This document shows positions 6,001-18,200 of a DNA stretch of 64,000 nucleotides, one piece after another. Positions within the stretch are counted from its first letter, which is position 1, and every line of letters starts with the position of its first letter. The notes beneath the pieces were generated by a model that saw nothing but the letters and a program-made list of their open reading frames with translations, did no database searches and was not told the DNA's origin. The stretch comes from Alphaproteobacteria bacterium (lineage in GTDB: Bacteria > Pseudomonadota > Alphaproteobacteria > SP197). Location: assembly GCA_965242595.1 (NCBI GenBank), contig OZ251464.1:1982235-2046234 (forward strand), in the 5' to 3' direction. A program made the position numbers and the translations under genes.

Positions 6001-9000
6001 GGTCCCAGCCACCGCCCCCACCGTCACCGTCACCGCCTCGCTCGACTTGCCCGAAAGCGTCGCCGTCACCGTCGCCTCGCCGCCCTGCTCCGAGATCGAG
6101 CTCTCCGACAGCGCCAGCGTCACGATGGGCAGGGTTTCGTCGTCGGTCAGCGTCAGGGTGAGATTGGAAGGCGCCACCACCCCGTTGCCGCCCGTCACCG
6201 TGCCGGAGACCGTCACCGACTTGTCAGGCGAGTCCACATCGTTGCCATTGGCCGTCACCGTCACCACGCCGGCGCTGGCGGTGCTGCCGGCGGCGATGGT
6301 CAGCGTGGTTCCCGTCTGGGCGAAGTCCGCCGCCACCGCCCCGGTCCCGGCCGCCGCCCCCACCGTCACCGTCACCGCTTCGCTGGAGGCGCCCGAAAGC
6401 GTGGCCGTCACCGACGACACCCCGCCGGTCTCCGAAATCGAGCTTTGCGACAGCGCCAGGGTCACCGTCGGCAGGGTTTCGTCGTCGGTCAGGGTCAGGG
6501 TCGCCGTGGTGACGGCCATGGTGGTGGAATCGGCGCTGGCCTGGTCGTTCGCCACCGTCGCCGTCACCGTCGCCTGGCGACCGGAGCTGCCCTGATGCAC
6601 GCTGTCGTTCACCGCCATGACGGTCACCGTGTCGCTGGCGGCGGTGGTGTCGCCGGCGTCGATCACGATCTGCCCCGCCGCCCCCGACGGCACCGTGAAG
6701 GCCCCGGAAACCGCCGTCACCGTCACCGTGGTGGCCGCGCTGGAGGGATGCGAGAGCGTCGCCGAGACCACCGAGCTGCCGCCGTTCTCGGCAATCGAGT
6801 CATCCGACAGCGCCAGCGTCACCCCCGGCGCCGCCTCGTCGTCGCTGATGGTCAGCGTGACGTCGTCCGGATCCGACGCGCCATCGCCGCCATCTACGGT
6901 GGCGGAGACCGTCACCTCCTTATCCGGCGCGTCGGCGGTGTTGTTCATCGCCGTCAATGTCACCACGCCGGTGCTGGTGGTGGCAGCGGCGGCGATGGTG
7001 AGCAGGGTTCCCGCCTGGGTGAAATCGGTCCCCGCCCCGGGCGAAGCCGAAACCGTGACGGTGGTCCCTTCGTTGGCCGCCTTGTCCAGCGTCGCCGTCA
7101 CCGTCGCCACCCCGCCGTCCTCCGAGATCGAGCTCTCCGACAGCGCCAGCGTCACCGCCGGCTTGTCGTCGTCTATGACCGTCACCGTCACCCCGATGGG
7201 GCGCTGCGCATGGGCCACGTTCCGCCCCACATCGCCGAGTCCGTAGTCGGCCACGACGTATCTGAGGCGCAGGGTGTTGTCCTCGTGGCCGGAGTCCGCG
7301 AGGGCATTCACGGTCACCGTCTGGGGCGTGTCCCAGGTCGTGGTCGTGAAGGTGTAGTTTTGCCCCCTCATGGGGGATAGTTGATTGTCGCCCCCCAGCG
7401 CGAGGCCGATGTCGGGGTAGAGGCCGACGCTGACCCACTGCGCCAGCCCAGGAGGCGGTTCGGTGTCCAGGACAAAGGTGAACGTCTTGCTGGCGCCCTC
7501 CTCGGTCAGGGTCATGGTGGTGGGGTTGAAGGTCACGCCTGCCGTGTCGTCGTCGGTCAGCGTCAGGTCCACCGTGGCTGGCGCCGCCACCCCATGGCCG
7601 CCCGCCATGGTGGCGGAGATCGTCACCTGCTTGTCGTTCGTATCCACCAAATTGCCATTGGCCGTCACCGTCACCGTGCCGGCGCTGGCGGTCTGCCCGG
7701 CCGCGATAGTCAGCGTCTTGGCGCTGGAGAGGGTGAAATCGCCCGCCACCGCCCCGGTCCCGGCCGCCGCCCCCACCGTCGCCACCACCGCCGCGCTCGA
7801 TTTGCCCGAAAGCGTCGCCGTCACCGTCGCCACCCCGCCAGTCTCCGAGATCGACGAGGACGACAGCGCCAGCGTCACGGTGGGCAGGGTTTCGTCGTCG
7901 CTCAGCGTCAGCGTGACATCCGACGGCGCCGCCACCCCGTTGCCGCCCGTCGCCGTGCCGGAGACCGTCACCGATTTGTCCGGCGCATCCACATCGTTGC
8001 CATTGGCCATCACCGTCACATCGCCGCTGCTGGCGGTGCTGCCAGCGGCGATGGTCAGCGTCGTGGCGGCGGAGAGGTCAAAGTCGCCCGCCACCGCCCC
8101 GGTCCCGGCCGCCGCCCCCACCGTCACCACCACCGCTTCGCTCGACTTGCCCGAAAGCGTCGCCGTCACCGACGAAACCCCGCCGGTCTCCGAAATCGAC
8201 GCCGGCGACAACGCCAGGGCCACCGTCGGCAGCGTGTCGTCTTCCGTAATGGTCAGGGTGACATTCGCCGGGTTCCCCACGCCGTGGCCGCCCGCCACCG
8301 TGCCGGAGACCGTCACCGACTTGTTCGCCGCGTGGACATCGTTGTCTTCGGCCGTCACCGTCACATCGCCGCTGCTGGCGGTGGCATTGGCGGCGATGGT
8401 GAGCGTGTTCTCCATGGAGAGCGTGAAGTCGTCCGCCCCCGCCCCGGCCCCGGCCGCCGCCCCCACCGTCACCACCACCTCCGCGCTCGATGCGCCCGAA
8501 AGCGTGGCCGTCACCGACGCCACCCCGCCGTTTTCCGCAATCGACGCCGGCGCCAGCGCCAGCGTCACCATGGGCGCCGTCTCGTCGTCGGTGAGCGTCA
8601 GCGCCGCGCCGGTCACGGCCATGGTCTCCGAGTTGGCGGCTGCCTGGTCGTTGGCCGCCGTGCCCGTCACCGTGGTGGCGCGCCCGGCGCCGTCAGCGCC
8701 GCCCTGATACACGCTGTCGTCCACCGCCGCCACGGTCGCCGTGTCGCCAGCGTTCACGGTATCGCCAGCGGCGATGACGATCACAGCGTCCGAACCCACC
8801 GTATAGGCCCCGTCCACCGCCGTCACCGTCACCGTGGTATCCGCGCTGGAGGGATGGGAGAGCGCCGCCGCTACCGTGGTCTCGCCGCCGTTCTCGCCGA
8901 TCGAGGCTGCCGACAGGCTCAGCGTCACACCCGGGGCATCGTCGTCGTCGGTCAGCGTCAATGCGACCCCGGTCGGGGCCGCCACGCCATTGCCGCCGCT

Positions 9001-11430
9001 GGCCGTGGCGGCAACCGTCACCTGCTTGTCGGGCGCATCGCCGTCGTTGTCCTCGGCCGTCAGCGTCACGCCGTCGCCGCCGCTGGCGGTGGCCCCGGCG
9101 GCGATGGTCAGCGTCCCCCCGCCGGAAAGGGTGAAATCGTCCGCCGCCGTCACCGTCACCACCACCGCCTCGCTGGAGGCGCCCGACAGCTTCGCCGTCA
9201 CCGTCGTCATCTCGCCATTTTCCGAAATCGAAGCCGACGACAGCGCCAGCGTCACGACCGGCAGCGCGTCGTCGTCGGTGAGCGTCAGCGTCACCGCCGC
9301 CGGCGCCCTCACATCGCCGCTCGCCTCCCCCGCAACCAGCATCCGCTTGTCCGGCGAGTCGATGCTGTTGCCCACCGCCGTAATCGTCACCGTGCCGGTG
9401 CTGGCGGTGGCCCCGCTGGCGAACACCAGCTCCGTCGTCGCCGACAGCGTGGCATCGCCCACCATGGCCCCCGCCCCGGGCGTCACCGTCACCGTAACGG
9501 TGGCCGCCCCGGCGGCCGCCTCGTCCAGCGTCGCCGTCACCGTCGTCACGCCGCCGGTCTCGGAGATGGTGGAGGACGACAGCGCCAGCGCCGCCTTGGG
9601 CACGGCGGTGATGGGGAGCCACTCGCCGTAGTAGTAATAAGTTGTTATGCCGTCGGGGAAGAGGCCGCCATGCGTGACGAGGACGACCACGCCGTCATTG
9701 TCGATCATCGCCTGGGTAAGACGGATCGTCCTGGACCCGCCGCTGCCGGTGGCCCGGCTGCAAATGGCGCCCTCGGTCGGCGCGGGGCCGCGATTTGAGG
9801 CGAGTCGCCTGACCGTCCTGTAAGCGCACGCCCAGACCCATCGATCCCCCAAGCTCCTCCCGGTAACGGTGATCGTTTGCGGGTCGGTCTTGCCCTTCAG
9901 CGACGCCGTGGTGACGTCATAGGTACCGAGCCCCGTTACCCAGCGCCTGTCGGTCCCGGTGGGCACGGTGCCGTCATTGTCGGTGACGGTCAGCGTCACG
10001 CTGGCCGGGTTCGCCACCCCGCCGCCGGCCGCGCTGCCCGACACCGTCACCTGCTTGGCGGCCCCGCGCATATCGTTGTTGACGCCCGTCACCGTCACCG
10101 TGCCGCTGCTGGCGGTCGCCCCGGCGGCGATGGTCAGCGTCCGCGTCAGAGACAATGTGAAGTCCCGCGCCGTCGCCCCGGTGCTGGGCGCCGCCGCCAC
10201 CGTCACCGTCACCGCCGCGCTGGAGGCGCCCGAAAGCCGCGCCGTCACCGTCGCCACCCCGCCGCCCTCCGAGATCGACGAGGGGGACAGCCCCAGCGTC
10301 ACCATCGGCGTGCCTTCGTCGTCGATCAGCGTCAGCGTGGTGGCTTCGGGCGCCCGGATGTCGCCAGCAACGCTGCCCGAAATCGTCACCTGCGCGTTGG
10401 GCGCGTCGGCGCTGTCGTCCATGGCGGTGATGGTGACTGTGCCGCTGCTGGCGGTGGCGCCGTTCGCGAACACCAGCCTCGTATTGCCAGAGAGCGTGAA
10501 ATCCGTGCCCGCGCCGGGGCTGGCCGCCACCGTGACGGTCGCCGCCCCGGAGGCCGGCTTGTCCAGCACCGCCGTCACCGTGGCCACCCCGCCATTTTCC
10601 CGGATCGACGAAGACGACAGGATCAGCGTCGCCTCCGGCAGCGAGACGATGGGCACCCATTCGGCGTAGAGATAGAAATGTCTGCCCGACGACTCCTCCA
10701 ACACCACAATGACCACGCCGTCATTGTCGATCATCGCCTGGGTCAGCGTGATCGAGTTGGGCGTGTTGTTGGTGGTAAGCTGGGTGCAGCCCGCGCCCGG
10801 TCCGGTGTTGGTGTAACCCTGGGTTGGCTGCGTGGCGTCTCTGGTGGCGCAGGCCCAGAAATCGACGAGGCGCTCCCTACCCCCTCGCGTCCTCACCGCC
10901 AGTGGCTGGGCGGTGGTCTTGGCCAGCAGCGGTGACGTGGTGATGTCCCAGTCGTTGGCTGTAGGGGCGCCGTTTCGCCACGTGGTCGCGGTGACCGACG
11001 GCTCGTTGTCGGCGATGGTCAGCGTCACGTCGGCCGGGCCGGTCAGGCTGCCGCCGCCGCCCGCGGCGCTGCCCGCCACCCTCACCATCTTGTCGGGCGC
11101 GTCGATGTCGTTGTTGACCGCCGTAATCGTCACCGTGCCGGCGCTGGCGGTGGTGTTGGCGGCGATGGTGAGCGTGGTGCCCGTCAGCGTGTAATCCGCC
11201 GCCCGGGCGCCGCTGGAGGCGACCGGCGCCACGCTGACCGTCACCGTCACCGCCGCGCTGTTCGGCGTGTTCAGACTGGCCGTCACCGAGGCCACCCCGC
11301 CACCCTCCGATATCGAAGCCGGCGACAGGCGCAAGCTCACACTCTGCGCCCAGGCCGGCGCCGCGGCGGCAAGCGCCAGCGCAGCCAGCAGGACGGCGAA
11401 ACCCACGCGGGAAGCGCGACAACCCCTCAC
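1..11430 (-). CDS. Giant Calx-beta-like repeat adhesin, paralog 2. This is the 5' partial, about 3800 codons; the gene continues past the window start.
   Basis: Reverse translation of 1..132 gives VTTTDNDDAPGVTLALSPAAISESGGAATVRATLSRPSGAATTI, the same repeat type as the large ORF. The frame stays open from the window edge up to a GTG at 11428-11430 that follows an in-frame TAG. The N-terminus reads VRGCRASRVGFAVLLAALALAAAAPAWA/QS, a signal peptide with an AWA cleavage motif. A GGGGGA Shine-Dalgarno-like motif sits ~5 nt upstream. It is absent from the ORF track because no stop lies within the window. Confidence 0.8.
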   Translation of the reverse strand, partial: MRGCRASRVGFAVLLAALALAAAAPAWAQSVSLRLSPASISEGGGVASVTASLNTPNSAAVTVTVSVAPVASSGARAADYTLTGTTLTIAANTTASAGTVTITAVNNDIDAPDKMVRVAGSAAGGGGSLTGPADVTLTIADNEPSVTATTWRNGAPTANDWDITTSPLLAKTTAQPLAVRTRGGRERLVDFWACATRDATQPTQGYTNTGPGAGCTQLTTNNTPNSITLTQAMIDNDGVVIVVLEESSGRHFYLYAEWVPIVSLPEATLILSSSSIRENGGVATVTAVLDKPASGAATVTVAASPGAGTDFTLSGNTRLVFANGATASSGTVTITAMDDSADAPNAQVTISGSVAGDIRAPEATTLTLIDDEGTPMVTLGLSPSSISEGGGVATVTARLSGASSAAVTVTVAAAPSTGATARDFTLSLTRTLTIAAGATASSGTVTVTGVNNDMRGAAKQVTVSGSAAGGGVANPASVTLTVTDNDGTVPTGTDRRWVTGLGTYDVTTASLKGKTDPQTITVTGRSLGDRWVWACAYRTVRRLASNRGPAPTEGAICSRATGSGGSRTIRLTQAMIDNDGVVVLVTHGGLFPDGITTYYYYGEWLPITAVPKAALALSSSTISETGGVTTVTATLDEAAAGAATVTVTVTPGAGAMVGDATLSATTELVFASGATASTGTVTITAVGNSIDSPDKRMLVAGEASGDVRAPAAVTLTLTDDDALPVVTLALSSASISENGEMTTVTAKLSGASSEAVVVTVTAADDFTLSGGGTLTIAAGATASGGDGVTLTAEDNDGDAPDKQVTVAATASGGNGVAAPTGVALTLTDDDDAPGVTLSLSAASIGENGGETTVAAALSHPSSADTTVTVTAVDGAYTVGSDAVIVIAAGDTVNAGDTATVAAVDDSVYQGGADGAGRATTVTGTAANDQAAANSETMAVTGAALTLTDDETAPMVTLALAPASIAENGGVASVTATLSGASSAEVVVTVGAAAGAGAGADDFTLSMENTLTIAANATASSGDVTVTAEDNDVHAANKSVTVSGTVAGGHGVGNPANVTLTITEDDTLPTVALALSPASISETGGVSSVTATLSGKSSEAVVVTVGAAAGTGAVAGDFDLSAATTLTIAAGSTASSGDVTVMANGNDVDAPDKSVTVSGTATGGNGVAAPSDVTLTLSDDETLPTVTLALSSSSISETGGVATVTATLSGKSSAAVVATVGAAAGTGAVAGDFTLSSAKTLTIAAGQTASAGTVTVTANGNLVDTNDKQVTISATMAGGHGVAAPATVDLTLTDDDTAGVTFNPTTMTLTEEGASKTFTFVLDTEPPPGLAQWVSVGLYPDIGLALGGDNQLSPMRGQNYTFTTTTWDTPQTVTVNALADSGHEDNTLRLRYVVADYGLGDVGRNVAHAQRPIGVTVTVIDDDKPAVTLALSESSISEDGGVATVTATLDKAANEGTTVTVSASPGAGTDFTQAGTLLTIAAAATTSTGVVTLTAMNNTADAPDKEVTVSATVDGGDGASDPDDVTLTISDDEAAPGVTLALSDDSIAENGGSSVVSATLSHPSSAATTVTVTAVSGAFTVPSGAAGQIVIDAGDTTAASDTVTVMAVNDSVHQGSSGRQATVTATVANDQASADSTTMAVTTATLTLTDDETLPTVTLALSQSSISETGGVSSVTATLSGASSEAVTVTVGAAAGTGAVAADFAQTGTTLTIAAGSTASAGVVTVTANGNDVDSPDKSVTVSGTVTGGNGVVAPSNLTLTLTDDETLPIVTLALSESSISEQGGEATVTATLSGKSSEAVTVTVGAVAGTGAVAADFGLSAAKTLTIAVGQTTSAGTVTVTASGNDVHSGDKSVTVSGTVTGGNGVVAPSDVTLTLSDDETLPTVTLALSSSSISETGGVATVTATLSGKSSEGVTVTVGAAAGTGAVAADFDLSSAKTLTIAAGTTASAGTVTVTANSNDRHSGPKSVTISGTAVGGNNIAAPSNLTLTLTDDESLPTVTLALSSSSISESSGVATVTATLSGKSSEAVTVTVGAAPGANAAAADFDLSSNTKLTIAAGATASAGTVTVTANGNNVHSPDKSVTVSGMVTGGNNVGTPSSLTLTLEDDDTATLTLALSDPISGEADAIKELATAPGSERMTTVTARLSTPASAAVTIAVSATAGTNAAADDFSFSANTKLIIAAGATASTGVVTITAVDDRIDSLVDDTVTRKKVVVKGAPSSTLTIAAPADVELRIWEDDRAALVTAPAFPRCRRAPCPVWLSVAEGASETFTVKLNSQPTTNITVAVKSDESDEGLVSAGGGTAAASTRLTFTASNWETAQTVTLHGVSDQVVDGDDDYTLRLFPDTPDEPTDAYHVIGGASVRPQTVRTTDVDVAGLTVSESTLTVTEGGAEQTFTVRLTSKPTAAVTVTATSGDGDEVRLARAAGDANAQAFATAKTLVFSASDWNATQTLRVTAVDDDRDDPASLAVEITLDPASSDGKYNGLDDETVDVTKNDDDPTPTLTLARAPAAISESGGVATVTATLSGKSDEAVVATVAAAPGTGASAADFTLSMAKTLTIAAGATTSSGVVTVTANGNMVDSPDKQVTISASVAGGHGLLSNPSDVALTLTDDDALPTVALALSASAVSENGGVATVTATLSGASSEAVTVTVDAAPGTGAAAADFDLSTAKTLTIAAGSTTSAGAVTVTANDNMVDAPDKSVTVSGTVVGGNGVANPTAVTLTLSDDDALPTLALALSPASISETNGVASVTATLSGASSEAVTVTVAAAPGTGAVAADFALSAARTLTIAAGVTVSGGDVTVTASDNDVDAPNKQVTVSGTAAGGNNVANPTAVTLTLENDEAAPTVTVTLSSASISENGGMTTASAVLSGKSSAATTVTVQGLQNIFTVPTGAGGRIVIAAGATTSADRVTITALDNDVDAGANAPYVLIGETNDHRVNAAAHPQVTITDDDTAGLALAPTPSTTARLQTDEGGGTASFTVALTSQPTGDVELDLAVAGSGTSEGAVSPGSLTFTASNWQTAQTATLTGQDDTLADGSQNYQVTVEVDQTNTADDTYDMVATATVYAVNHDDEYGLVTGTVSGQATEGGGTASFTVRLRTQPAQAVTVTVSSQDASEGRVSPSTLTFQPGDWSTTQAVTVTGEDDNIDDGTVTWNVRLDPASGDTNYNALANVDVPVTTTDNDAAPGVTLALTPAAISENAGVATVRATLSRPSGAATTITVTGVTGAFTVPSGAAGQIVIAAGDTVNASGTVTITAVNDNVHQGSPGRQANVTAIVTNDRASADSTTMAVTAATLRLNDDDAAPGAVLALSPASISENGGTSAVSATLSRASAVATTVTVMAAQGAAYRVGSDATIVIAAFATAAASDTAAITAVDNDIDEPNRTATVTATLTNDRGAGSVTGATLTLEDDDAAPGVTLSVQPATITENGGAAAVSAVLERPSSQPTTVTVTAQSGVFTVPAGAAGRIVIAASATTASGTVTITAVNNQVDATDNMVTVGAAATNGHGVGSVTGASLTISDDDQAAIVMSETTSTSSRLRTSEDGSTATVDITLATGPTANVVIDVTSSNTGEGTASPSSLTFTSSDWQTAQTVTLTGVNDPSPGTADGSQNYRVTLAVNTADTADSFYDALSDVFIYAVNADDELGLDVGTVTGQASEGRGQASFTVKLATDPGQATMSSQAVTVTVTSQDAGEGRVSPSALTFTAGSSGNWNTNQVVTVTGVDDNIDDGTVTWDVRLDTSSASGSDYNGIADVDVSVTTTDNDDAPGVTLALSPAAISESGGAATVRATLSRPSGAATTI
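260..4900. repeat. Multi-kb block of gene 2 homologous (roughly 85-95% nt) and largely collinear with gene 1 segment 20150..26500
   Basis: Antisense ORFs are near-identical at a constant offset of 19,897 bp: 1397..1624 vs 21294..21521, 1628..1912 vs 21525..21809, and 1913..2215 vs 21810..22112. The offset shifts by ~1.7 kb further on (4475 vs 26100). Confidence 0.7.
9620..9965 (-). other. Insert module copy in gene 2 (second)
   Basis: Verified reverse translations: VTLTVTDNDGTVPTGTDRRWVTGLGTYDVTTAS... and ...GSRTIRLTQAMIDNDGVVVLVTHGGLFPDGITTYYYGEWLPITAV. Confidence 0.55.
10640..10975 (-). other. Insert module copy in gene 2 (N-proximal)
   Basis: Verified reverse translations: VTLTIADNEPSVTATTWRNGAPTANDWDITTSP... 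and ...QAMIDNDGVVIVVLEESSGRHFYLYAEWVP. Confidence 0.55.
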
Positions 11431-11808: not shown

Positions 11809-12546
11809 CTAAGCCACGACAGGGGCGGTCGCTGCCGGAACGGACGGCCCCTCGACAGCGATGCTGCGATCCGCCGCCATCGCAATATGCCGCGCCACGC
11901 GCTCGTCCAGGACGCTCTCCTGGGTATCGAGTTCAAGCGCGAAACGAATCAGCAGCCGTCTGTACAGGTCGAAATCGCGCTCTTGCCGCGCTGCGGCCAA
12001 TTGCCGAATGGCAAGATCGTCGCGCCGCAGCGGCCCGCATACGCGCATGAGGTGAAGGGCGGCGTTGCCCCGCTCCGAGAGGCGGCTTCCCCGCTGGATG
12101 GCGTCTTCCAATGCCTCGTCGAACGCCGTTCGCCCCGCCTCGGTCCATCGCGCCTTGAGGGCCGTGTAAAGGGCCGGCGTCGCCACCCCCAGCCAGCACC
12201 CGGTGTCATCGAGGGGCGCAAGGGATATGCCCGAATCGCCCAGCGCGCCCCCCACAACCTCGGCAGCCCGCGCAAGTTCCGCCCCCATGGCGACCACCCC
12301 TTCGCCGGAGACGATCGGCCGCGCGGATGCCGGCGGCAGCAGGGTGCCAAGCACCGCCGCTTCGTCCGGATCGGCGACCTCCAGCGCCCCGGGGTCGTCG
12401 CGCCAGTCGAGGCTGTGCGCAAGATAGAGCGCGGGATCGCCTGCGAATGAAAGCAAGGGTGGGCAAAAATGCATCCAGTCGCCAACATGGGCGGCGGACA
12501 TGCTAAAAAACCCCCGCAGGGTTGCGGCTGCGCGCGTGTCAACCAT
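11809..12546 (-). CDS. Hypothetical protein (245 aa). Its start overlaps the stop of the upstream ORF by 8 nt.
   Basis: ORF with mixed amino-acid composition (W, H, F, Y, C), unlike the low-complexity antisense frames. It is in the same orientation as its neighbours and translationally coupled to 12539..13315. I recognise no family. Confidence 0.5.
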   Translation of the reverse strand: MVDTRAAATLRGFFSMSAAHVGDWMHFCPPLLSFAGDPALYLAHSLDWRDDPGALEVADPDEAAVLGTLLPPASARPIVSGEGVVAMGAELARAAEVVGGALGDSGISLAPLDDTGCWLGVATPALYTALKARWTEAGRTAFDEALEDAIQRGSRLSERGNAALHLMRVCGPLRRDDLAIRQLAAARQERDFDLYRRLLIRFALELDTQESVLDERVARHIAMAADRSIAVEGPSVPAATAPVVA

Positions 12547-13315
12547 GAGCGGCCTCCAGCACCATGGATTCCTCTACCGTCTGCACCACCGACCCGTCTT
12601 TCTCCGACACGATGACGTGATCGAAAACCCACCTGTAGATTCGCTGGCTTTCGCTGTCTGCCAACGGGTTGCGCCCGAGCCAATGGATATATTTGCCGCG
12701 ATTGTCTTCGCTCATGTGGATTGCCCGTAGCTCCAGGCGGCCGGTGATCGCGTCGTGCGGGATGCGGACTTCCCATGTCCAGGCCCGCGCGGTGTTCGGC
12801 TGTCCCCTGACGATGGTGAACCCGGTCTCCGGAGGCCGATTCCCGGGCCCGGGGGCGCGGCCCTCAATGTAGTCGCTGAGCGTGTCGTAGTGGGCGAGAA
12901 TATACCGTTCGAAAGCATCCTTCCAGTCGCGCAACGGCACATCCAGCGTCCGGAAGGCCGCTTGCCGCGCTGTCGTCCCGAGTGGTGGATCGGTGTGGAT
13001 CTTGCCCGCCCACCAGCCGCCGCTGTCGAACGGCGTGGCCCCCCTCGCATCCGCAGGCCAGGCAACGCCTTCGGCCTCGCTCAAGACAAATACGATCCAG
13101 CCATAGCTGTCCTCCGCCCGCAGGACGTAGAAGTAGTAGGGCTTGCCGAGGATGCCAAGCCCATGCTCGGCCGCCAGGGTTTGCGGGCGGGCAGCGGGCG
13201 CAGGCCACTTTCCCTGGATGGCTGCGGTCACCAATTCGCGCCAATCCTCGCCACCATGAAGGTGGTAGTTGTGCAGCCCTCGGGTCAGCAAACGGTTCAT
13301 GGCCCCATCATACAC
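12539..13315 (-). CDS. Hypothetical protein (258 aa)
   Basis: Complex, non-repetitive composition (YYFYVLRAEDSYGWIVFVLSE..., WTWEVRIPHD...). It sits 69 nt downstream of the protease gene stop. I recognise no family. Confidence 0.55.
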   Translation of the reverse strand: MYDGAMNRLLTRGLHNYHLHGGEDWRELVTAAIQGKWPAPAARPQTLAAEHGLGILGKPYYFYVLRAEDSYGWIVFVLSEAEGVAWPADARGATPFDSGGWWAGKIHTDPPLGTTARQAAFRTLDVPLRDWKDAFERYILAHYDTLSDYIEGRAPGPGNRPPETGFTIVRGQPNTARAWTWEVRIPHDAITGRLELRAIHMSEDNRGKYIHWLGRNPLADSESQRIYRWVFDHVIVSEKDGSVVQTVEESMVLEAAHG

Positions 13316-13384
13316 CGGGAGCAGCGGGAATTGTCACCCCCCAATCGGCATGACGGCCTGCCGGGAGGGCGCCGGGCGGGGCGT

Positions 13385-14041
13385 TCAGGGCTTGGGTTCC
13401 GGCCGTAATGGCGGGCAGCTGTCCGCGCCATCCGCCTGGCGTTTCTGGCGCTGGCGATAGTATTCGACCAGTCGGTACGGGTCGTGGCCGACGGAGCGCG
13501 AAATCCGGTGGCGAACCTCGCGCACGGCGGCGATGACGGGATCGTCTCTCATGGCGATGCCACCTCTCCGGGAAGCTGCGACTTCACGCGCCATGGCGCC
13601 GCCGCGGCGCCAGAGAGTAGCCCGTTTCAGCTTGATCAGGGGGCGGTCGGGCGACTCCGGGCGCGGCCCCAGCGCGCGGGTGGCGCTATCCGCCACCAGG
13701 TCCAGCGCCGTCAGCACGATCTGGCCGATCAGCGGCTCGCTCAAGGGCGGGCCGACGATGCACTCGGTGATCATGAAGCGGTTGCCGATGTGAACCGTCA
13801 CCGGCCCGGCCACCGGGCGGGTTTCCTTGCGTTGGTCCGCATAGGTCACGACGACCTCGCGCTGCTTCCTCAGACCCAGGCGGCTGACCACGTTCTCCGG
13901 CAACACGAGCATGACCGCGCCGGTATCCACCACGCCTAGCACCGTCATGCGGCGAAGCTCGGATTCGGGGCGCAAACCCCGGCGGACGATGCAGCGGTCG
14001 CCGGTGTTTTCTAATTCCACCGAAGCGACGATCTCACCCAT
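13385..14041 (-). CDS. Retropepsin-like (clan AA, DTGA motif) aspartyl protease with a ~80-aa C-terminal extension
   Basis: Reads MGEIVASVELENTGDRCIVRRGL...LGVVDTGAVMLVLPENVVSRLGL...IGNRFMITECIVGP, with the catalytic D-T-G-A signature and the overall pattern of the PF13650/PF13975 type. There is a strong SD (GAGGAGGAAG) 8 nt upstream of the ATG at 14041; the ORF track extends it to a GTG at 14089. The C-terminal tail (MRDDPVIAAVREVRHRISRSVGHDPYRLVEYYRQRQKRQ) is unassigned. Confidence 0.6.
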   Translation of the reverse strand: MGEIVASVELENTGDRCIVRRGLRPESELRRMTVLGVVDTGAVMLVLPENVVSRLGLRKQREVVVTYADQRKETRPVAGPVTVHIGNRFMITECIVGPPLSEPLIGQIVLTALDLVADSATRALGPRPESPDRPLIKLKRATLWRRGGAMAREVAASRRGGIAMRDDPVIAAVREVRHRISRSVGHDPYRLVEYYRQRQKRQADGADSCPPLRPEPKP

Positions 14042-14061
14042 CGGCTTCCTCCTCACCGGCA

Positions 14062-14190
14062 TCCTGTCGCAACCGGAGCACCATGCCACAGGCGCCGCCG
14101 GGCGGGTGTCGGGTGGGTGTCACGGGGGTGTCGTGGACATGTTGCAGGGCGGCCGCGGCAGGCGGCGCGGGGCGGCGGGGGCCTGCCCAG
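14062..14190. repeat. Intergenic element R, copy 1. It lies between hicB and the protease gene.
   Basis: ~100-bp core is shared with 14627..14758 and 15151..15245. It contains GTGTC-type repeats phased at exactly 11 bp (14106, 14117, 14128, 14139). Its gene-proximal end reads GGTTGCGACAGGAT on minus. Confidence 0.7.
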
Positions 14191-14208
14191 GCCGTGTCCG
14201 GGCGCCGG

Positions 14209-14415
14209 TTAGACGGTGGCCGGTTCGGGCAGCGCCCCATCCTCATTGCGGACGATCTCCAGCCACTCGTCCACGATCCGGCACAGCTCGCGATACACCG
14301 CCACTTCGTCGTCGCCATGACAGCACGGGCCGATGACCCCGGGACAGGAACCGACAAAACACCGGTCCTCGTCCGACCATGCGACTCGCTTGATGTATTT
14401 CGCGCTGTCCTTCAT
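14209..14415 (-). CDS. hicB: HicB-family antitoxin, short form without a DNA-binding domain (68 aa)
   Basis: Reads MKDSAKYIKRVAWSDEDRCFVGSCPGVIGPCCHGDDEVAVYRELCRIVDEWLEIVRNEDGALPEP, matching the HicB-like antitoxin pattern (Y..v.WseEDg.yva..P.lpGc...GdT.eEA.......I.ewLE). It has a 4-nt ATGA overlap with hicA and a GAGGAG SD inside the hicA 3' end. Confidence 0.75.
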   Translation of the reverse strand: MKDSAKYIKRVAWSDEDRCFVGSCPGVIGPCCHGDDEVAVYRELCRIVDEWLEIVRNEDGALPEPATV

Positions 14416-14606
14416 GTCTGCGACTCCTCTATCCTTCGCCGCACCTCTCGTTCCTGGTAGGGCTTGGCATCGCCACCCAGGCTTCCGGAAATCGTCACAC
14501 GCTGCCCGTTCGGGTGGCGATAATTTCTGTGGCTGCCCTTGCCGCCGCGCGAAACGAACCCCGCCCGCTCCAGGTCTCTCACCAACGCTGCGACTTTACG
14601 CGGCAT
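14412..14606 (-). CDS. hicA: HicA-family mRNA interferase toxin (64 aa)
   Basis: Reads MPRKVAALVRDLERAGFVSRGGKGSHRNYRHPNGQRVTISGSLGGDAKPYQEREVRRRI. It has the G-KGSH-x-y-HP signature of HicA/YcfA-like proteins and sits directly upstream of hicB with overlap. Confidence 0.8.
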   Translation of the reverse strand: MPRKVAALVRDLERAGFVSRGGKGSHRNYRHPNGQRVTISGSLGGDAKPYQEREVRRRIEESQT

Positions 14607-14626
14607 GGTGTCGAGGCCGACATGGC

Positions 14627-14758
14627 CAACATTCTATCGCAACCGGGGCGCCATGGTCACAGGCGCTGCCGGGAGGGTGTCGGGCAGGTGTCACGGGCGT
14701 GTCGTGGGCGTGTTGCAGGGCGGCCGCGGCAGACAGCGCGGGGTGGCGGGGGCCGGGT
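14627..14758. repeat. Intergenic element R, copy 2, immediately upstream (minus sense) of hicA
   Basis: Four GTGTC/GTGTT repeats at 14677, 14688, 14699 and 14710 with exact 11-bp phasing. A TTGCGATAGAAT (-10-like TAGAAT) lies 25 nt before the hicA ATG on minus. Confidence 0.7.
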
Positions 14759-14762
14759 GGAA

Positions 14763-15044
14763 TTATCCCGAAGCTCGTTGAACTTCAGCCGCCCCGCCAT
14801 GCCGTGGCCCGCGCTGCCCAACCATCCCGGAGCACGCCAGGCCCGCGGTCGGTTCGGGCAGCGCCCCATCCTCATCGCGGAGGATCTCCAGCCACTCGTC
14901 CACGATCCGGCACAACTCCCGATACACCGCCACTTCGTCGTCGCCGTGACAGCACGGGCCGATGACGCCGGGGCAGGAACCGACGAAGCACCGATCCTCG
15001 TCCGACCACGCGACTCGCTTGATGTATTTCGCGCTGTCCTTCAT
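14763..15044 (-). CDS. Second, orphan HicB-like copy (hicB') with a 26-aa C-terminal extension and no hicA partner
   Basis: MKDSAKYIKRVAWSDEDRCFVGSCPGVIGPCCHGDDEVAVYRELCRIVDEWLEILRDEDGALPEPTAGL... is ~93% nt identical to hicB over ~250 bp. It has an intact ATG (15044) and a GAGGAG SD. The ORF track extends it to 15083 through the tandem repeat. Confidence 0.5.
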   Translation of the reverse strand: MKDSAKYIKRVAWSDEDRCFVGSCPGVIGPCCHGDDEVAVYRELCRIVDEWLEILRDEDGALPEPTAGLACSGMVGQRGPRHGGAAEVQRASG

Positions 15045-15057
15045 GTCCGCGACTCCT

Positions 15058-15130
15058 CTATCCTCCGCCGCGCCGCTCTCCATCCCTCGCCGCGCCGCTC
15101 TCTATCCTTCATCCTTCGCCGCGCCGCTCA
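15058..15130. repeat. Imperfect 22-bp tandem triplication replacing hicA upstream of hicB'
   Basis: Units are ctatcctccgccgcgccgctctc / catccctcgccgcgccgctctc / tatccttcatccttcgccgcgccgctcattcc. They correspond to the 3' end of hicA (RRRIEE codons and the hicB SD) present once at 14416..14440. Confidence 0.7.
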
Positions 15131-15150
15131 TTCCTGGCACAGTTGGCACC

Positions 15151-15245
15151 CTATCGCAACCGGGCCACCACCACAATAGGCGCTATCGGGAGGGTGCCGC
15201 AAGGGTGTCGTGAACATGTTGCGCGGCCGCCGCCCGACACCCGCC
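15151..15245. repeat. Intergenic element R, copy 3, partial and diverged. It lies between the giant gene 1 stop and hicB'.
   Basis: Starts ctatcgcaaccgg like copies 1 and 2. It retains three 11-bp-phased GTG(C/T)C repeats at 15194, 15205 and 15216. Confidence 0.55.
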
Positions 15246-15286
15246 CGACACCCCTGCGGCACCCACCCGACAGGCGGCGCGGGCGC

Positions 15287-18200
15287 CTACCAGGCCAGGC
15301 GCAGTTCCAGGGCCAGGCCGTGTTCGGGATCGGCGACGCCCTCGTTGCGGCTGGCCTCGATGGCGAGGCTCAGCACGCTGCCCAGCCCCCACCGCTGGCC
15401 CAGGCTGTAGCGGCGCTCGCCCCGGCCCAGGGCCATGGCGCCATAGGGGGTCGCGGTGGCGACGCCGCCCCAGGCGGGCAGGCCATAGCCCAGCTCGCTC
15501 TCCAGCCGGGCGCCCCGGCCGACGCTGGCGCCGTTCTCGTCGCCGCCCGCCATGCCGTCCTGCCACAGGCGCGTCAGGCCGCTATCGGCCACGCCCCAGG
15601 CGGGGGCGAGCTGGAACGACAGGCCGCGCCCGTCGCCGTCGGGGTTCAGGTGGAAGGCGCCAGACGCGCCCCATTCCTCCAGATCGCTGCGATGGGCCAG
15701 CAGGGCCCGCCCGCCCAGTTCGGCCCCCAGGCCGCCGCCGGAATCGCTCAGCGCGATGCTGCCGCCCAGCTCCACGCCCATGCCGCTGGCGCCATCGCCA
15801 CCGTCCCAGCGCAGCCCCGCCTCCAGGGACGGCGCCAGCGACCAGCCGCCATCCAGCGACCAGCTGCGGCTTCCCGCCGCCGCCAGCCGGGCGCGCTGGG
15901 TGGCCACGGTCAGGGCGGCGATCACCTCGCCATTGTCGTCCAGGGCATAGCGGGTGGCCTCCACCGACGCCTTCAGGTCCAGCGCCAGCCCGTCGGCGGC
16001 CAGCAGCGGCAGCGCCCCGCCCATGGCGGCGGCCAGCATGGAACTGTCGCCCGCCTGCCAGCCATAGCGCTCGCGGATGGCGCTATCGGTCATGCGCAGA
16101 TCGCCGCGCCCATAGCCCAGGGCCGCCCACAACCGGCTGCCGTCGGCGCCGGCCCAGCCCAGATAGGGATGGACGGCCGACATGGCGCTCTCGTGGTCGC
16201 CCCGGATGGCGCCCTCGTCGCCATCGCTGCGGTCGCTATAGGCGATGGCGCTCTCGAAGCGCGAGAGCGCCAGCCCGGCGGTGAAGCCGTCGCCCAGCAC
16301 CGCATCGGCGCCGAGATGGGCCGCGAACAGCCTGCCCGACCAGTCCAGCGCCGCCTGCTTGCGTTCCAGATCGCGCCAGTCGCCGGCGCCCCACAGCACC
16401 AGCGAGGAGGCGCCGCCATCGTCGTCATCGCCGCCACTCAGGGCCAGGGTGAAGCCTTCGCCGCCCAGCAGCTCCTTCCACGAGCTGCCGCCGTCCTCCA
16501 GCGCCTCGCCCTTGGAGCGCAGGAAGCCCGCCGCCGCGTCCAGGCCCTGCGCCGCCAGCCCACCGCCGCCACCGGCCGGGCCTTCCAGGCGGGAGGAGAT
16601 GGCGTCCAGCGCGCTGCCCCACATGGCCCGCGACAGCTCCGGCAGAATGGAGCGGTTGATGGCCTTCAGCCGCGCCCGCGCCAGGTCCAGATTGGCCACC
16701 ACCTCGACGGTGAAGACCAGCTCCGCCCGCTGGCCGTCGATATCGGTCGCCGTCCAGCTGTAGCTGCGCAGCTCGAACGCCGCGCCCGGCGTCCCCGACA
16801 GGCGGCGCCCGGCGCGGGCGATGCCGTCCGGCAGCGTCTCCGGCGCCAACGCATATTGCAGCTGCCCGTCGCCGCCGCTCGCCAGCGGCAGGTCCAGCGG
16901 CGCGATGGCCTCGTCCACCGTCCAGGTCAGCGCCTGCGGGAAGTCGGCCTCGGCGAAGGACGGGCGCGTGTCCTCATAGCCGACCGCAAAGGGCGAGAAT
17001 GTCGTCACCCCGGGCGCGCACACCCGCATCCGCTCCGCCTCCCAGGACGACCCCGCCACCGGTTCCCAGGCGCTGCCGTCATGATGCAGCAGCACGGGTT
17101 CGCGCCCCGCCGCCGCCGCCAGCAGAGCCTCGCTTACCGGCAGGCAGATATGCAGCCCCGCCGCCAGCGCCCCCGCGACCTGGATATCCACCGCCGACTG
17201 CGCCGCGCCGTCCCGCCCCAGGGCGAAGCCCGACCCATCCACCACCGGCAGCGCCCGGTCCGAAAGCGGCCTGAAGCTCATCTCCACCATGCGTCCGCCG
17301 ATGCTGAACACCGCCTCCGCCTCCCGCAACGGCGCCAGGATGCGGCTGTCCTCTTCCACCGGAGCGGAGAGCGCCGCCTGCACCCCGTCATAATCGCCGC
17401 CGGAGGCGCTGTGGGTCAGCAGCGCCGCGTCGGCATAGTCGTCCTCGTCCCCCCGCGCCGTCACCGTCACCGTCTGCGCCTGGTTCCAGTCCGCCGCCGT
17501 GAAGGTCAGGCCGGTGGGCGCGGGCGTCACATCCGGGTTGTCGCTCGCCACCGCCAGCGTCACCGGCCCGGTGGGCTCGCTGGTCAGCGCCACCGTGTAG
17601 TCGGCCCCCGGCCCGTCCGCCGTGGTCGCCACCGCCGCCGGCGCGAAGGCCAGCCCCCTGCTGTCGTCGTCGGCGACGGTCAGGGTGGCGGCGGCGACGG
17701 CCACGCTTTCGCCGGCGGCGCTGGCCAGGGCGTTGGCGGCCGCGCCCGTCACCCGCACCGATATGTCCGGCGCATCCACGGCGTTGTCGTTGGCCGTCAC
17801 CGTCACCTGGCCGCTGCTGGCGGTAGCAAAGGCGGCAAAGGTCAGCGTCGTTCCCGCCTGGGTGAAATCGCCCGCCACCGCGCCCGCCACCGGCGCCGCC
17901 TGAACCGTCACCGTGGTCGCCGCCGCCGAGGGATGGGACAGCAGCGCCGTCACCCGCGTCACGCCGCCGTTCTCGGAGATGGTGGCCGGGTTCAGCACCA
18001 GCGTCACCGCCGGCGCCGCGTCGTCGTCGCTCGTGGTCACATCCACATGCTCGACCAGGCCGTCATAGATGGCATCGCCGCTCGCCGTCCGCAGCCGCAC
18101 CTGCCATGCGACATCGCCATCGTCGATGGCGTCGTCCACCCCGGTCACCGTCACCCTCTGGGCCCGGTTCCAGTTCCCGGCGCCGAACACCAGCGCGGCC

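What the first reader, a model, noticed from the sequence alone, without database searches (positions are those of the whole stretch)
14062..15245. Thrice-repeated ~100-bp intergenic element with four 11-bp-phased GTGTC repeats, each placed just upstream of a gene
Copies at 14062..14190, 14627..14758 and 15151..15245 sit upstream (minus sense) of the protease gene, hicA and hicB' respectively. Each contains GTGTC(N6) repeated at exactly 11-bp spacing, one helical turn (for example 14677, 14688, 14699, 14710). Each ends with TTGCGA(T/C)AG(A/G)AT resembling a -10 region. Helically phased direct repeats are typical binding arrays for transcription factors. This looks like a shared operator/promoter copied along the cassette, or else a small structured RNA.
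Basis: seen in the sequence. Interest (0 to 1): 0.6.

Follow-up and report, generated by a model that had tools for sequence, protein, structure and literature searches.

The report
Repeated promoter-junction element with phased repeats
A roughly 120-bp non-coding block, built from short repeats spaced one DNA turn apart plus promoter-like sequence, sits in front of each small gene module in a toxin-antitoxin/protease island of an uncultured alphaproteobacterium and one related genome; it is real and lineage-specific, but most likely an ordinary duplicated regulatory junction.

Summary
Three clear copies lie on the minus (gene) strand: E1 14060-14183, E2 14630-14754 and E3 14147-15286 corrected to 15147-15286. 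A decayed fourth copy, E0, lies at 13301-13384. The repeating unit is 11 bp with core CGACA[C/G]. E1 and E2 have three exact GTGTC plus degenerate units, not four. E3 has an extra inverted array and forms a 45-nt-arm hairpin directly after a 13,619-aa adhesin gene.

The element is missing from Rfam, from the pattern scans of GTDB representative genomes, JGI metagenomes and IMG/VR, and from the closest hicA loci. A related metagenomic contig (L279) has four to five copies in the syntenic island, again one before each module. Modules there are in a different order and one copy truncates a protease gene.

The shared core shows no RNA or single-stranded-DNA structure and no attC features. Only the two full-length copies fold. 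Conservation between the genomes is no higher than at third codon positions.

Best reading: a lineage-specific junction element, array plus promoter-like block, spread with its modules by duplication and recombination between copies. Protein binding to the array and terminator activity of the hairpin are inferred, not shown.

The parts
15147..15286 (-). E3, the full-length palindromic copy, between the stop of the 13,619-aa adhesin gene (TAG 15289-15287) and the hicA remnant and hicB'
   Evidence: I3: 45-nt arms, 78% complementary; hairpin z -5.0 and -5.8; core HMM E 9e-13
15230..15273 (-). E3 left arm: four 11-bp units in inverted orientation (CTGTC, GTGCC, GTGTC, GTGTC as read on the minus strand)
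   Evidence: (period 11, 3.9 copies)
15179..15211 (-). E3 right arm: three 11-bp units (ACGACACCCTT, GCGGCACCCTC, CCGATAGCGCC), preceded by the palindromic GCAACATGTTCAC (15210-15222) and the GCGGCCGC dyad (15223-15230)
15148..15176 (-). E3 promoter-like block: TTGTGG (15171-15176), 17 bp, TAGGGT (15148-15153), within the conserved CCGGTTGCGATAGGGTG
   Evidence: below the scanner threshold
14630..14754 (-). E2, a half copy (right arm only) between hicB' and hicA
   Evidence: E 5e-8
14662..14705 (-). E2 array: four 11-bp units (ACGACACGCCC, GTGACACCTGC, CCGACACCCTC, CCGGCAGCGCC)
14631..14660 (-). E2 promoter-like site GTGACC-18-TAGAAT; predicted start about 14623-14625, 17-19 nt before the hicA ATG at 14606
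   Evidence: (the only promoter-like hit in 13300-15400; 0.1 expected)
14060..14183 (-). E1, a half copy between hicB and the aspartic protease gene
   Evidence: D3: 90% identical to E2 over 97 nt; E 4.5e-10
14091..14134 (-). E1 array: four 11-bp units (ACGACACCCCC, GTGACACCCAC, CCGACACCCGC, CCGGCGGCGCC)
14061..14089 (-). E1 promoter-like block GTGGCA-17-CAGGAT, followed by GAGGAGGAA and the protease ATG at 14041
   Evidence: below the scanner threshold
13301..13384 (-). E0, a decayed copy. Its three units have lost the GACA cores (13355-13384). GTGACA (13332-13337), 19 bp, TATGAT (13307-13312) follow, ending 6 nt before the ATG at 13300 of the 253-aa gene, which suggests a leaderless transcript.
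   Evidence: 2 of 500 shuffles reach the score; but 7% of random genomic windows do; 82% identical to L279 copy L_e, which keeps intact units; start codon as annotated in P0244
15056..15137 (-). Triplicated 22-29-bp remnants of the 3' end of a deleted hicA, between E3 and hicB'
   Evidence: (D4, D6)
14763..15044 (-). hicB', an orphan HicB-like antitoxin of 93 aa; module 1
   Evidence: P0124; weak UPF0150-like match
14209..14606 (-). hicA (14412-14606) and hicB (14209-14415); module 2
   Evidence: (HicA_toxin, 1.4e-10)
13385..14041 (-). Clan AA aspartic protease ORF running into a hicA 5' remnant (13564-13601) and a conserved small 'MRDDPV' ORF (13385-13549); module 3
11809..13300 (-). Overlapping 253-aa and 245-aa genes of an uncharacterised family; module 4, served by E0

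Best explanation
E is a lineage-specific intergenic junction element that marks the start of each small gene module in an island lying between two giant adhesin genes.

Anatomy, read on the gene (minus) strand:
(a) In full-length copies, an inverted array of four 11-bp units.
(b) A short GC-rich dyad and an AACATGTT-type palindrome.
(c) A direct array of three or four 11-bp units with core CGACA[C/G].
(d) The sequence GCGCC.
(e) About 30-60 bp later, a sigma-70-like -35/-10 pair placed 6-25 nt before the module's ribosome-binding site or start codon.

Shown here:
- The copies are homologous.
- They are conserved as a family in a second, related genome.
- They always precede a module.
- The window's threefold repetition comes from segmental duplication of [E-hicA-hicB], followed by deletion of hicA in one unit.
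- Module order differs between the two genomes, with breakpoints at E copies.

Inferred:
- The proximal block is the module's promoter.
- The phased units, all on one face of the helix at about -55 to -88, are binding sites for an unidentified protein that binds head-to-tail at 11-bp spacing, as OmpR/PhoB/ArcA-type or ribbon-helix-helix proteins do.
- In full-length copies (E3, L_c) the two arrays pair into a long hairpin in the 3' end of the upstream transcript, insulating or terminating it.
- Recombination between the directly repeated copies duplicates, deletes and reshuffles modules.
For: Reality and statistics.

Duplication unit: 14060-14449 matches 14630-15078. hicB and hicB' are 93% identical and E1 and E2 90%.

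Second genome: a profile built only from the window copies hits L279 at 5078-5152 (6e-16), 6853-6895 (2e-9), 7920-7956 (5e-8) and 6056-6086 (0.12). All hits are on the gene strand and each precedes a module: protease, the 99-aa gene, hicA-hicB, and the 254-aa operon. The L279 island is syntenic on its downstream side, where a Calx-beta/LapA giant gene follows.

Unit logo from 33 units: G3 invariant, C5 and A6 in 32 of 33, C2 and A4 in 27 of 33, and weak spacer positions.

Promoter-like features: E2 is the only promoter-like hit in 13300-15400. A2 and T6 of the -10 hexamer are kept in all window copies, and spacers are 17-19 bp. Between E0 and L_e both hexamers (GTGACA, TATGAT) are unchanged while the 19-bp spacer has 4 substitutions.

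Hairpins: E3 z -5.0 and -5.8; L_c z -4.5. One two-sided change separates the arms: GGCAC/GTGCC in E3 against GACAC/GTGTC in L_c.

Mobility or recombination: copy L_e truncates a second protease gene after 'VVDTGAVM'.

Precedent: most ArcA sites have 3-5 direct repeats at 11-bp centre-to-centre spacing (PMC3798270, read).
Against: - No transcription data exist.
- Only E2 passes the consensus promoter scan, and no L279 copy does. The -35 hexamers are poor.
- No candidate DNA-binding regulator was found in the island. HicB lacks a DNA-binding domain, and the other proteins have no Pfam, NCBIfam or PADLOC match.
- Identity of E between the genomes is 78-82% overall and 93% in the best 42-nt core. 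Third codon positions of the flanking genes are 78-88% identical.
- Substitutions hit the cores as often as the spacers. E3 against L_c: 2 in cores, 1 in spacers. E1 against L_a: 1 in cores, 3 in spacers.
- E0 has lost every core, yet its downstream operon is intact.
- The hairpins have no U-tract.
- Unit-number changes of 11 bp can arise from slippage alone.
Confidence: 0.5

Rival explanations
1. Neutral by-product. E is only the spacer DNA that travelled with a tandemly amplified toxin-antitoxin/protease module. The 11-bp units arose by replication slippage and the palindromes by template switching. Neither the array nor the hairpin has a sequence-specific function. Any promoter activity lies in the proximal block alone.
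For: Conservation is no better than at third codon positions, and changes fall in the cores as often as in the spacers. E0 has lost all cores. Copy number changes by whole units. Different inverted duplications occur at different copies: the array arm in E3, and a 19-bp perfect stem in L_e formed at a gene-truncation junction. No regulator was found.
Against: Four to five copies persist in each of two genomes that differ by about 12% in their genes, always in the same orientation and position relative to a module. The CGACA core is retained in 27-33 of 33 units, including half copies that cannot form the hairpin. Exact 11-bp phasing holds in both arms.
Confidence: 0.25
2. A foldback MITE or REP-like mobile element, comparable to Neisseria Correia repeat-enclosed elements. 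The two inverted arrays are terminal inverted repeats holding several transposase-binding sites. The element inserts between genes, supplies an outward promoter, and forms an RNA hairpin. Half copies are deletion derivatives.
For: Full copies (E3, L_c) have inverted arms ending in TGTC...GACA. They lie in 3' UTR/5' flank positions and carry a promoter-like end. One copy interrupts a protease gene in L279. CREEs are described as generating promoters at their ends and binding IHF and RNase III (PMC2649163 abstract).
Against: No target-site duplication flanks E3 or L_c (read directly). All copies lie inside one island and in one orientation. None occurs elsewhere in the 64-kb window, in the rest of the 13-kb L279 locus, or in ten other loci from relatives. 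No transposase gene is nearby. The gene truncation in L279 carries the whole downstream operon with it, which fits a deletion or recombination as well as an insertion.
Confidence: 0.15
3. A site-specific recombination site that assembles cassettes: either an integron attC or CALIN-type site, or an att site with arm-type or excisionase direct repeats spaced one helical turn apart.
For: The layout is cassette-like: 517-bp and 571-bp modules each bounded by E. The island includes toxin-antitoxin genes. Module order is shuffled between genomes. Binding sites for recombination directionality factors are direct repeats one helical turn apart (abstract of 10.1101/784983). GCAAC and GTTGC occur as an inverted pair.
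Against: The shared core does not fold as single-stranded DNA or RNA better than shuffles, with z from -0.44 to +0.73. GTTGCGA and CTGCAAC each miss the GTTRRRY/RYYYAAC consensus at two positions. The sequence 3' of the putative GTT crossover is conserved among copies, which is the opposite of attC behaviour. No integrase gene lies in the window flanks or in L279.
Confidence: 0.05
4. A cis-regulatory structured RNA (leader or riboswitch) or a G-quadruplex/i-motif element formed by the GGGNGGGTGTC units.
For: Two of only three canonical G4 motifs on the plus strand of the window lie in E1 and E0, and one on the minus strand lies in the E3 arm. The arrays are C-rich on the transcribed-sense strand.
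Against: There is no Rfam match above threshold. The only hits are chance-level leuA-Halobacteria matches inside the hicA/hicB coding overlap. Folding shows no excess stability. If the promoter assignment is right, the arrays lie upstream of the transcription start. E2 lacks a canonical G4 motif, and the L279 units are poorer in G-runs.
Confidence: 0.04

Closest known systems
Multi-repeat operators of OmpR/PhoB-family response regulators (for example ArcA sites with 3-5 direct repeats at 11-bp centre-to-centre spacing; tandem pho boxes)
   Same: Three or four short direct repeats with a 5-bp core, exact 11-bp phasing, and a position upstream of a promoter-like site (PMC3798270).
   Different: No cognate regulator is identified and no regulon is visible outside the island. 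The core CGACAS matches no motif I could find (one search returned nothing for GTGTC). Full copies carry a second, inverted array, which is not typical of these operators.
Plasmid R1 parC centromere/promoter bound by ParR, and arrays of omega-protein heptads on pSM19035 (the latter from my own knowledge)
   Same: Two sets of short iterated repeats are associated with a promoter. In pSM19035 the same array type recurs before several operons, including a toxin-antitoxin pair. parC holds two sets of five-fold iterons (PMC2241845 abstract).
   Different: There are no parM/parR or omega-like ribbon-helix-helix genes here. The context is chromosomal. The arrays are inverted relative to each other and can pair into a hairpin.
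Correia repeat-enclosed elements and other small palindromic intergenic repeats (REP/BIME, ERIC, RUP)
   Same: A short (about 100-140 bp) inverted-repeat element lying between genes. It can supply a promoter at its end and form an RNA hairpin in the upstream transcript (PMC2649163).
   Different: No target-site duplication. The copies seen are confined to one island in each genome. The arms are built of 11-bp periodic units. No sequence similarity.
Integron attC sites / CALIN arrays
   Same: Repeated elements of about 120 bp separate small, co-oriented cassettes that include toxin-antitoxin genes.
   Different: The attC structural and core-site tests fail, and no integrase is present.
11-bp CGACACCC arrays in pelagiphage-like IMG/VR contigs, and iterons inside phage replication-initiator genes
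   Same: The same 8-bp core at the same 11-bp period, four to five units, often as inverted pairs.
   Different: The scan pattern itself imposed the GACAC phasing. There is no alignable homology outside the units. The context is phage (next to the small terminase gene, or inside lambda-O-like genes). I treat this as convergence.

Membership tests
Integron attC / CALIN | Inverted core sites R'' (RYYYAAC) and R' (GTTRRRY) | tested here: not met
   The candidates CTGCAAC/GCGCAAC and GTTGCGA each miss the consensus at two positions (read).
Integron attC / CALIN | A single strand folds into a stable imperfect hairpin (R''/R', L''/L') | tested here: not met
   DNA folds of the GCAAC...GTTGC segment of all three copies, both strands: z from -0.44 to +0.73.
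Integron attC / CALIN | Sequence 3' of the GTT crossover belongs to the next cassette and so varies between sites | tested here: not met
   TTGCGAYAG is conserved in E1-E3 and in L_a.
Integron attC / CALIN | IntI integrase near the array (not required for CALIN) | tested here: not met
   No integrase among the ORFs and Pfam hits of the window or among the called genes of L279.
Any Rfam RNA family | Covariance-model score at or above the family's gathering threshold | tested here: not met
   Only two sub-threshold leuA-Halobacteria hits (27 and 22 bits against a threshold of 47.9), and both lie in coding sequence.
Operator array of an OmpR/PhoB-type (or ribbon-helix-helix) regulator | At least two direct repeats at 10-11 bp centre-to-centre spacing | tested here: met
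Operator array of an OmpR/PhoB-type (or ribbon-helix-helix) regulator | A cognate DNA-binding protein that binds the repeats | not testable with these tools
   No candidate lies in the island. Needs EMSA or pull-down.
Operator array of an OmpR/PhoB-type (or ribbon-helix-helix) regulator | Repeat cores conserved above the neutral rate | tested here: inconclusive
   The logo shows a strong CGACA core, but changes between the genomes hit cores as often as spacers, and overall identity is about that of third codon positions.
Sigma-70-type promoter | -35 and -10 hexamers with a 16-19 bp spacer, suitably placed before the gene | tested here: inconclusive
   E2 passes the scan. E1, E3, E0 and all L279 copies fall below threshold, but keep A2/T6 and a TG in the -35 hexamer.
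Sigma-70-type promoter | A mapped transcription start | not testable with these tools
   No transcript data.
MITE / Correia-like element | Terminal inverted repeats | tested here: met
   E3 arms are 45 nt and 78% complementary. L_c folds with z -4.5. Half copies lack one arm.
MITE / Correia-like element | Target-site duplication | tested here: not met
   Flanks are CCGCC and GCGCC for E3, and GAGGC and GCGCC for L_c. No duplication.
MITE / Correia-like element | Many dispersed copies in the genome | tested here: inconclusive
   No copy outside the island in the 64-kb window, the 13-kb L279 locus or ten loci from relatives. The whole genomes could not be searched.
Intrinsic (Rho-independent) terminator | GC-rich hairpin followed by a U-tract | tested here: not met
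   The hairpin is present in E3, but no T-run follows it and the terminator scan does not flag it.
R1 parC-type centromere | Adjacent parM/parR (or parA/parB) genes | tested here: not met
   None in the island.

The most novel reading that the evidence does not exclude
E could be the junction site of an integrase-free cassette system. In this reading a foldback array element supplies each small module (toxin-antitoxin pair, protease, unknown operon) with a promoter and an insulating hairpin. Its phased CGACAS units are bound by a dedicated, still unidentified protein that also promotes exchange between copies. Modules would then be duplicated, deleted and reshuffled next to giant adhesin genes, as seen between the window and L279.
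Probability: 0.1. Interest if true: 0.6.

Novelty: new member of a known kind. Interest (0 to 1): 0.33.

Why it matters
If the array is a real operator, one unknown factor would co-regulate a set of toxin-antitoxin, protease and uncharacterised modules placed between giant adhesin genes in an uncultured alphaproteobacterial lineage. The element would also be a handle for finding that factor.

If it is mainly a recombination substrate, it shows how small accessory modules are amplified and shuffled without an integrase.

Either way the practical lesson is modest. Short repeated intergenic blocks in accessory islands are often duplicated junctions. Helical phasing alone does not show regulation. 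The nearest related genome was the decisive comparison here.

Tried and rejected
1. Rfam scan of 11-17 kb at E <= 1: nothing relevant.

2. GTDB-representative genomes scanned with CACGACAC-N15-45-GCGCCT-N10-18-CCGGTTGCGA: four chance hits in unrelated phyla, all in coding sequence. The source genome is not in that collection.

3. JGI metagenomes scanned with GCGCCT-N12-16-CCGGTTGCGAYAG: 120 hits, none extending beyond the pattern under nhmmer.

4. IMG/VR scanned with four patterns. The element-specific patterns gave only chance hits. The generic phased-GACAC pattern recovered unrelated phage iteron arrays. I followed these and set them aside as motif-level resemblance.

5. BLAST of the 1.25-kb region against plasmids and phages: no match.

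6. Test of E as the native hicAB operator: eight loci with HicA 83-90% identical lack it. Only the last 17 nt or so resemble hicA-upstream sequence in L008, L266 and L007.

7. attC and structured-RNA hypotheses: folding at shuffle level.

8. Search for a regulator or defence function among the island proteins in Pfam, NCBIfam and PADLOC: nothing.

9. G-quadruplex idea: enrichment noted but not consistent across copies.

10. Look-up of the source record through exact proteins failed. HicA, HicB and the protease are not on record for contig retrieval, so the rest of the 2.82-Mb genome could not be scanned.
Full report
CONTEXT

All genes around the finding lie on the minus strand. A 13,619-aa ORF (15287-56146; Calx-beta and He_PIG domains) and a second giant ORF that runs off the window (1 to about 11457; Calx-beta and LapA) flank a 3.8-kb island of small genes. 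In gene order the island holds:
- hicB' (14763-15044)
- hicA (14412-14606; HicA_toxin, 1.4e-10)
- hicB (14209-14415)
- a clan AA aspartic protease ORF (13385-14041)
- an overlapping pair of 253 aa and 245 aa (12539-13300 and 11809-12546)

These assignments rest. RmuC homologues place the organism among uncultured Alphaproteobacteria. The nearest named hits are from Albidovulum, at 57-58% identity. The source contig is 2.82 Mb.

THE OBSERVATION

Three homologous copies are present.
- GTGTC-N6-GTGTC occurs five times in 64 kb, all inside the copies, against 0.34 expected.
- GCAACAYGYYCACGACAC occurs three times against 0.07 expected.
- Tandem Repeats Finder reports period-11 arrays in each copy.

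Read on the gene strand, the copies are E1 14183->14060, E2 14754->14630 and E3 15286->15147.

- E1 and E2 carry three exact cores plus degenerate units, not four.
- E3 carries a second, inverted array (15230-15273), so it is longer than stated.
- The terminal block of E3 ends in GGGT, not (A/G)AT.

Coding does not explain the periodicity. Eleven is not a multiple of three, and the plus-strand ORFs across the copies lack the GC3 bias of real genes.

WHY THERE ARE THREE COPIES

A self-comparison shows one contiguous duplicated block. Positions 14060-14449 match 14630-15078, at 77.5% identity including a 59-bp indel. In gene order this block is [last 35 nt of hicA - hicB - E]. hicB and hicB' are 93% identical, and E1 and E2 are 90% identical.

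Between E3 and hicB', only the last codons of hicA survive, triplicated as 22-29-bp repeats at 15056-15137. The simplest history is a tandem array of [E-hicA-hicB] units, with hicA deleted from the first unit.

A weak hicA 5' remnant lies inside the protease ORF at 13564-13601 (76% identity, E 0.002).

A FOURTH, DECAYED COPY

Immediately after the protease ORF stop lies ACGCCCCGCCCGGCGCCCTCCCGGCAGGCC...GTGACA-19-TATGAT-GGGGCC-ATG (13384->13298).
- It shares CCCTCCCGGCAG with E2. Only 2 of 500 shuffles reach its stringent local alignment score.
- With lenient gap scoring, 7% of random genomic windows score as well. Taken alone it was therefore uncertain.
- The related genome settles it, as described below.

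SEARCHES THAT FOUND NOTHING

- Rfam has no family for it.
- A strict pattern scan of GTDB representative genomes gave four chance hits.
- A scan of JGI metagenomes gave 120 chance hits.
- Element-specific scans of IMG/VR gave chance hits only.
- BLAST against plasmids and phages gave no match.
- Eight loci with HicA 83-90% identical to the window's lack the element. Only the last 17 nt or so (CCGGTTGCGATAGAATG) resemble the sequence just upstream of hicA in three of them.

A generic scan for four phased GACAC returned more than 120 viral contigs. Many carry 4-5 CGACACCC units at 11-bp spacing, often as inverted pairs. They lie beside the small terminase gene of pelagiphage-like genomes or inside replication-initiator-like ORFs. 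A cultured relative has a different iterated motif at the same position. The scan pattern imposed the phasing and nothing else aligns, so I treat this as resemblance, not homology.

THE DECISIVE COMPARISON

The 253-aa protein belongs to an uncharacterised family of about 140 members. Its closest homologue (79% identity) lies on L279, a 24-kb ENA contig.

A profile built only from the three window copies hits L279 at four places on the gene strand:
- 5078-5152 (6e-16)
- 6853-6895 (2e-9)
- 7920-7956 (5e-8)
- 6056-6086 (0.12)

The L279 island reads as follows:
- E-a, protease, hicA remnant
- E-b, 99-aa gene, 'MRDDPV' ORF
- E-c, hicA, hicB
- E-d (partial), truncated protease
- E-e, 254-aa operon

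A Calx-beta/LapA giant gene follows, as in the window. The element is therefore a conserved family in a second genome whose genes are 86-91% identical to the window's. It again stands in front of every module.

Three further points come from this comparison:
- Module order differs between the two genomes.
- E-e cuts a second protease copy after 'VVDTGAVM'. The junction carries a perfect 19-bp inverted duplication, with z -6.5.
- E0 aligns with E-e at 82% identity. E-e still has intact units (ACGACACCCCT, GCGACAGCTTC, CCGACAGGCCG), so E0 is a true copy whose cores have decayed.

ANATOMY FROM NINE COPIES

The shared core is AACATGTTCAC-GACACCCCTGC-GACACCCTCCC-GACAGCGCC. A logo of 33 units gives sCGACAsCcnc. 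G3 is invariant, C5 and A6 are present in 32 of 33 units, and C2 and A4 in 27 of 33.

Downstream of GCGCC, the copies fall into classes with different proximal sequences:
- Class I (E1, E2, E3, L_a) ends in CCGGTTGCGAYAsrrTG.
- Class III (E0, L_e) has GTGACA-19-TATGAT.

The array is thus the part common to all junctions.

Two orthologous copies, E3 and L_c, also have an upstream inverted array of four units. hicB' is closer to the L279 hicB (91%) than to the window's hicB (87%), which supports the orthology. Both copies fold into long hairpins, with z -5.0/-5.8 and -4.5. One two-sided difference separates their arms: GGCAC/GTGCC in E3 against GACAC/GTGTC in L_c.

Half copies fold at shuffle level as RNA or as DNA.

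HOW IT MOST LIKELY WORKS

Promoter (inferred). In the window, a -10-like hexamer keeping A2 and T6 lies 17-19 bp after a TG-containing hexamer:
- E1: GTGGCA-17-CAGGAT
- E2: GTGACC-18-TAGAAT
- E3: TTGTGG-17-TAGGGT
- E0: GTGACA-19-TATGAT

These sites sit 6-25 nt before a Shine-Dalgarno sequence or start codon. In E0 the position suggests a leaderless transcript starting at ATG 13300, which is the start codon annotated in the public record.

Only E2 passes the consensus scan. No L279 copy does.

Array (inferred). With the E2 start placed near 14624, the unit centres fall at about -55, -66, -77 and -88, all on one helical face. That is where upstream-bound regulators sit. ArcA sites with 3-5 direct repeats at 11-bp spacing are a close formal precedent (PMC3798270).

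No binding protein can be named. HicB here lacks a DNA-binding domain, and the other island proteins match nothing.

Hairpin (inferred). In E3 the hairpin begins 12 nt after the adhesin stop codon. It could insulate the island from read-through. It has no U-tract.

Spread (largely shown). Copies in direct orientation bound the duplicated and rearranged segments.

WHAT WEAKENS A FUNCTIONAL READING OF THE ARRAY

- Identity of E between the genomes is 78-82% overall, and 93% in the best 42 nt. Third codon positions of the neighbouring genes are 78-88% identical.
- Substitutions hit cores as often as spacers.
- E0 has lost its cores without loss of its operon.
- Whole-unit indels are what slippage produces.

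A neutral by-product therefore remains a serious rival (0.25).

OTHER RIVALS

A Correia-like foldback MITE (0.15) fits the inverted arms, the outward promoter-like end and the gene interruption (PMC2649163). It lacks target-site duplications and dispersed copies in the sequence available.

attC membership fails on core sites, on folding, and on the conserved sequence 3' of the putative crossover.

A structured RNA or G-quadruplex role has little support.

VERDICT

The feature is real, and it is conserved in one related genome. It is best described as a new, lineage-specific member of the class of small repeated intergenic junction elements that carry promoter and operator sequence.

Interest is modest. 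The unusual point is arms built of helically phased units, but no step of a new mechanism has been shown.

Noticed in passing
window 15287-56146 (-) and 1 to about 11457 (-): Two tandem giant adhesin-like genes: 13,619 aa, and at least 3,819 aa running off the window. Domains are Calx-beta, He_PIG and LapA. GC3 is about 0.92, against 0.76-0.83 in the island between them.
   Followed up: partly
window 15056-15137 and 14763-15044 (-): hicB' is an orphan antitoxin. Its hicA has been deleted down to the last 35 nt or so, which are triplicated as 22-29-bp repeats. hicB' has a C-terminal extension like the 106-aa HicB of L279 and is closer to it (91%) than to the window's own hicB (87%).
   Followed up: partly
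window 13564-13601 (-), inside the protease ORF; L279 about 5640-5720: A remnant of a hicA 5' end follows the protease domain in frame. The same protease-hicA' arrangement occurs in L279. A conserved small ORF (MRDDPVIAAVREVRHRIS...) follows in both genomes.
   Followed up: partly
window 11809-13300 (-); L279 8001-10354; L280 2263-4659; L281 8001-10556: The 253-aa gene heads an uncharacterised operon family of about 140 homologues, usually 253 + 330-400 + about 193 aa. In L280 and L281 it lies next to transposase genes, behind a TTGATTGTGTACAATCAA palindrome. It has no Pfam, NCBIfam or PADLOC match. The window version is shortened (245 aa, with no third gene).
   Followed up: partly
L007 about 5990-6060 and about 10460-10540: A related genome's island, also next to a Calx-beta gene, has its own different repeated promoter-like element (GGGTTGCCAA-N17-GCGAGAGTGCGGCAAATG) before duplicated small-gene modules.
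   Followed up: no
IMG/VR loci L022-L141 (for example L026, L035, L040, L086, L104, L138): Many pelagiphage-like contigs carry 4-5 units of CGACACCC at 11-bp spacing, often as inverted pairs, between an exonuclease operon and a 95-106-aa gene beside the small terminase. Other contigs carry phased arrays inside replication-initiator-like ORFs.
   Followed up: partly
window 14100-14117 (+), 13363-13381 (+), 15244-15268 (-): Canonical G-quadruplex motifs coincide with the arrays. Only three such motifs exist on the plus strand of the whole window, and two of them are in E1 and E0.
   Followed up: partly
L279 7884-7926: A perfect 19-bp-stem palindrome (CATGTTCATGTGCAGCACG/CGTGCTGCACATGAACATG) sits exactly at the junction where an element copy truncates a protease gene. 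This suggests template-switch inverted duplication at these elements.
   Followed up: no
L279 4150-5000: Two tandem copies of a small gene (83 and 91 aa), together with their upstream region, lie just before the island. This is another local segmental duplication.
   Followed up: no
window 14392-14443 and 15021-15072 (-): Sub-threshold Rfam hits to leuA-Halobacteria (22 and 27 bits against a gathering score of 47.9) fall on the duplicated hicA-end/hicB-start overlap. They are probably chance.
   Followed up: no
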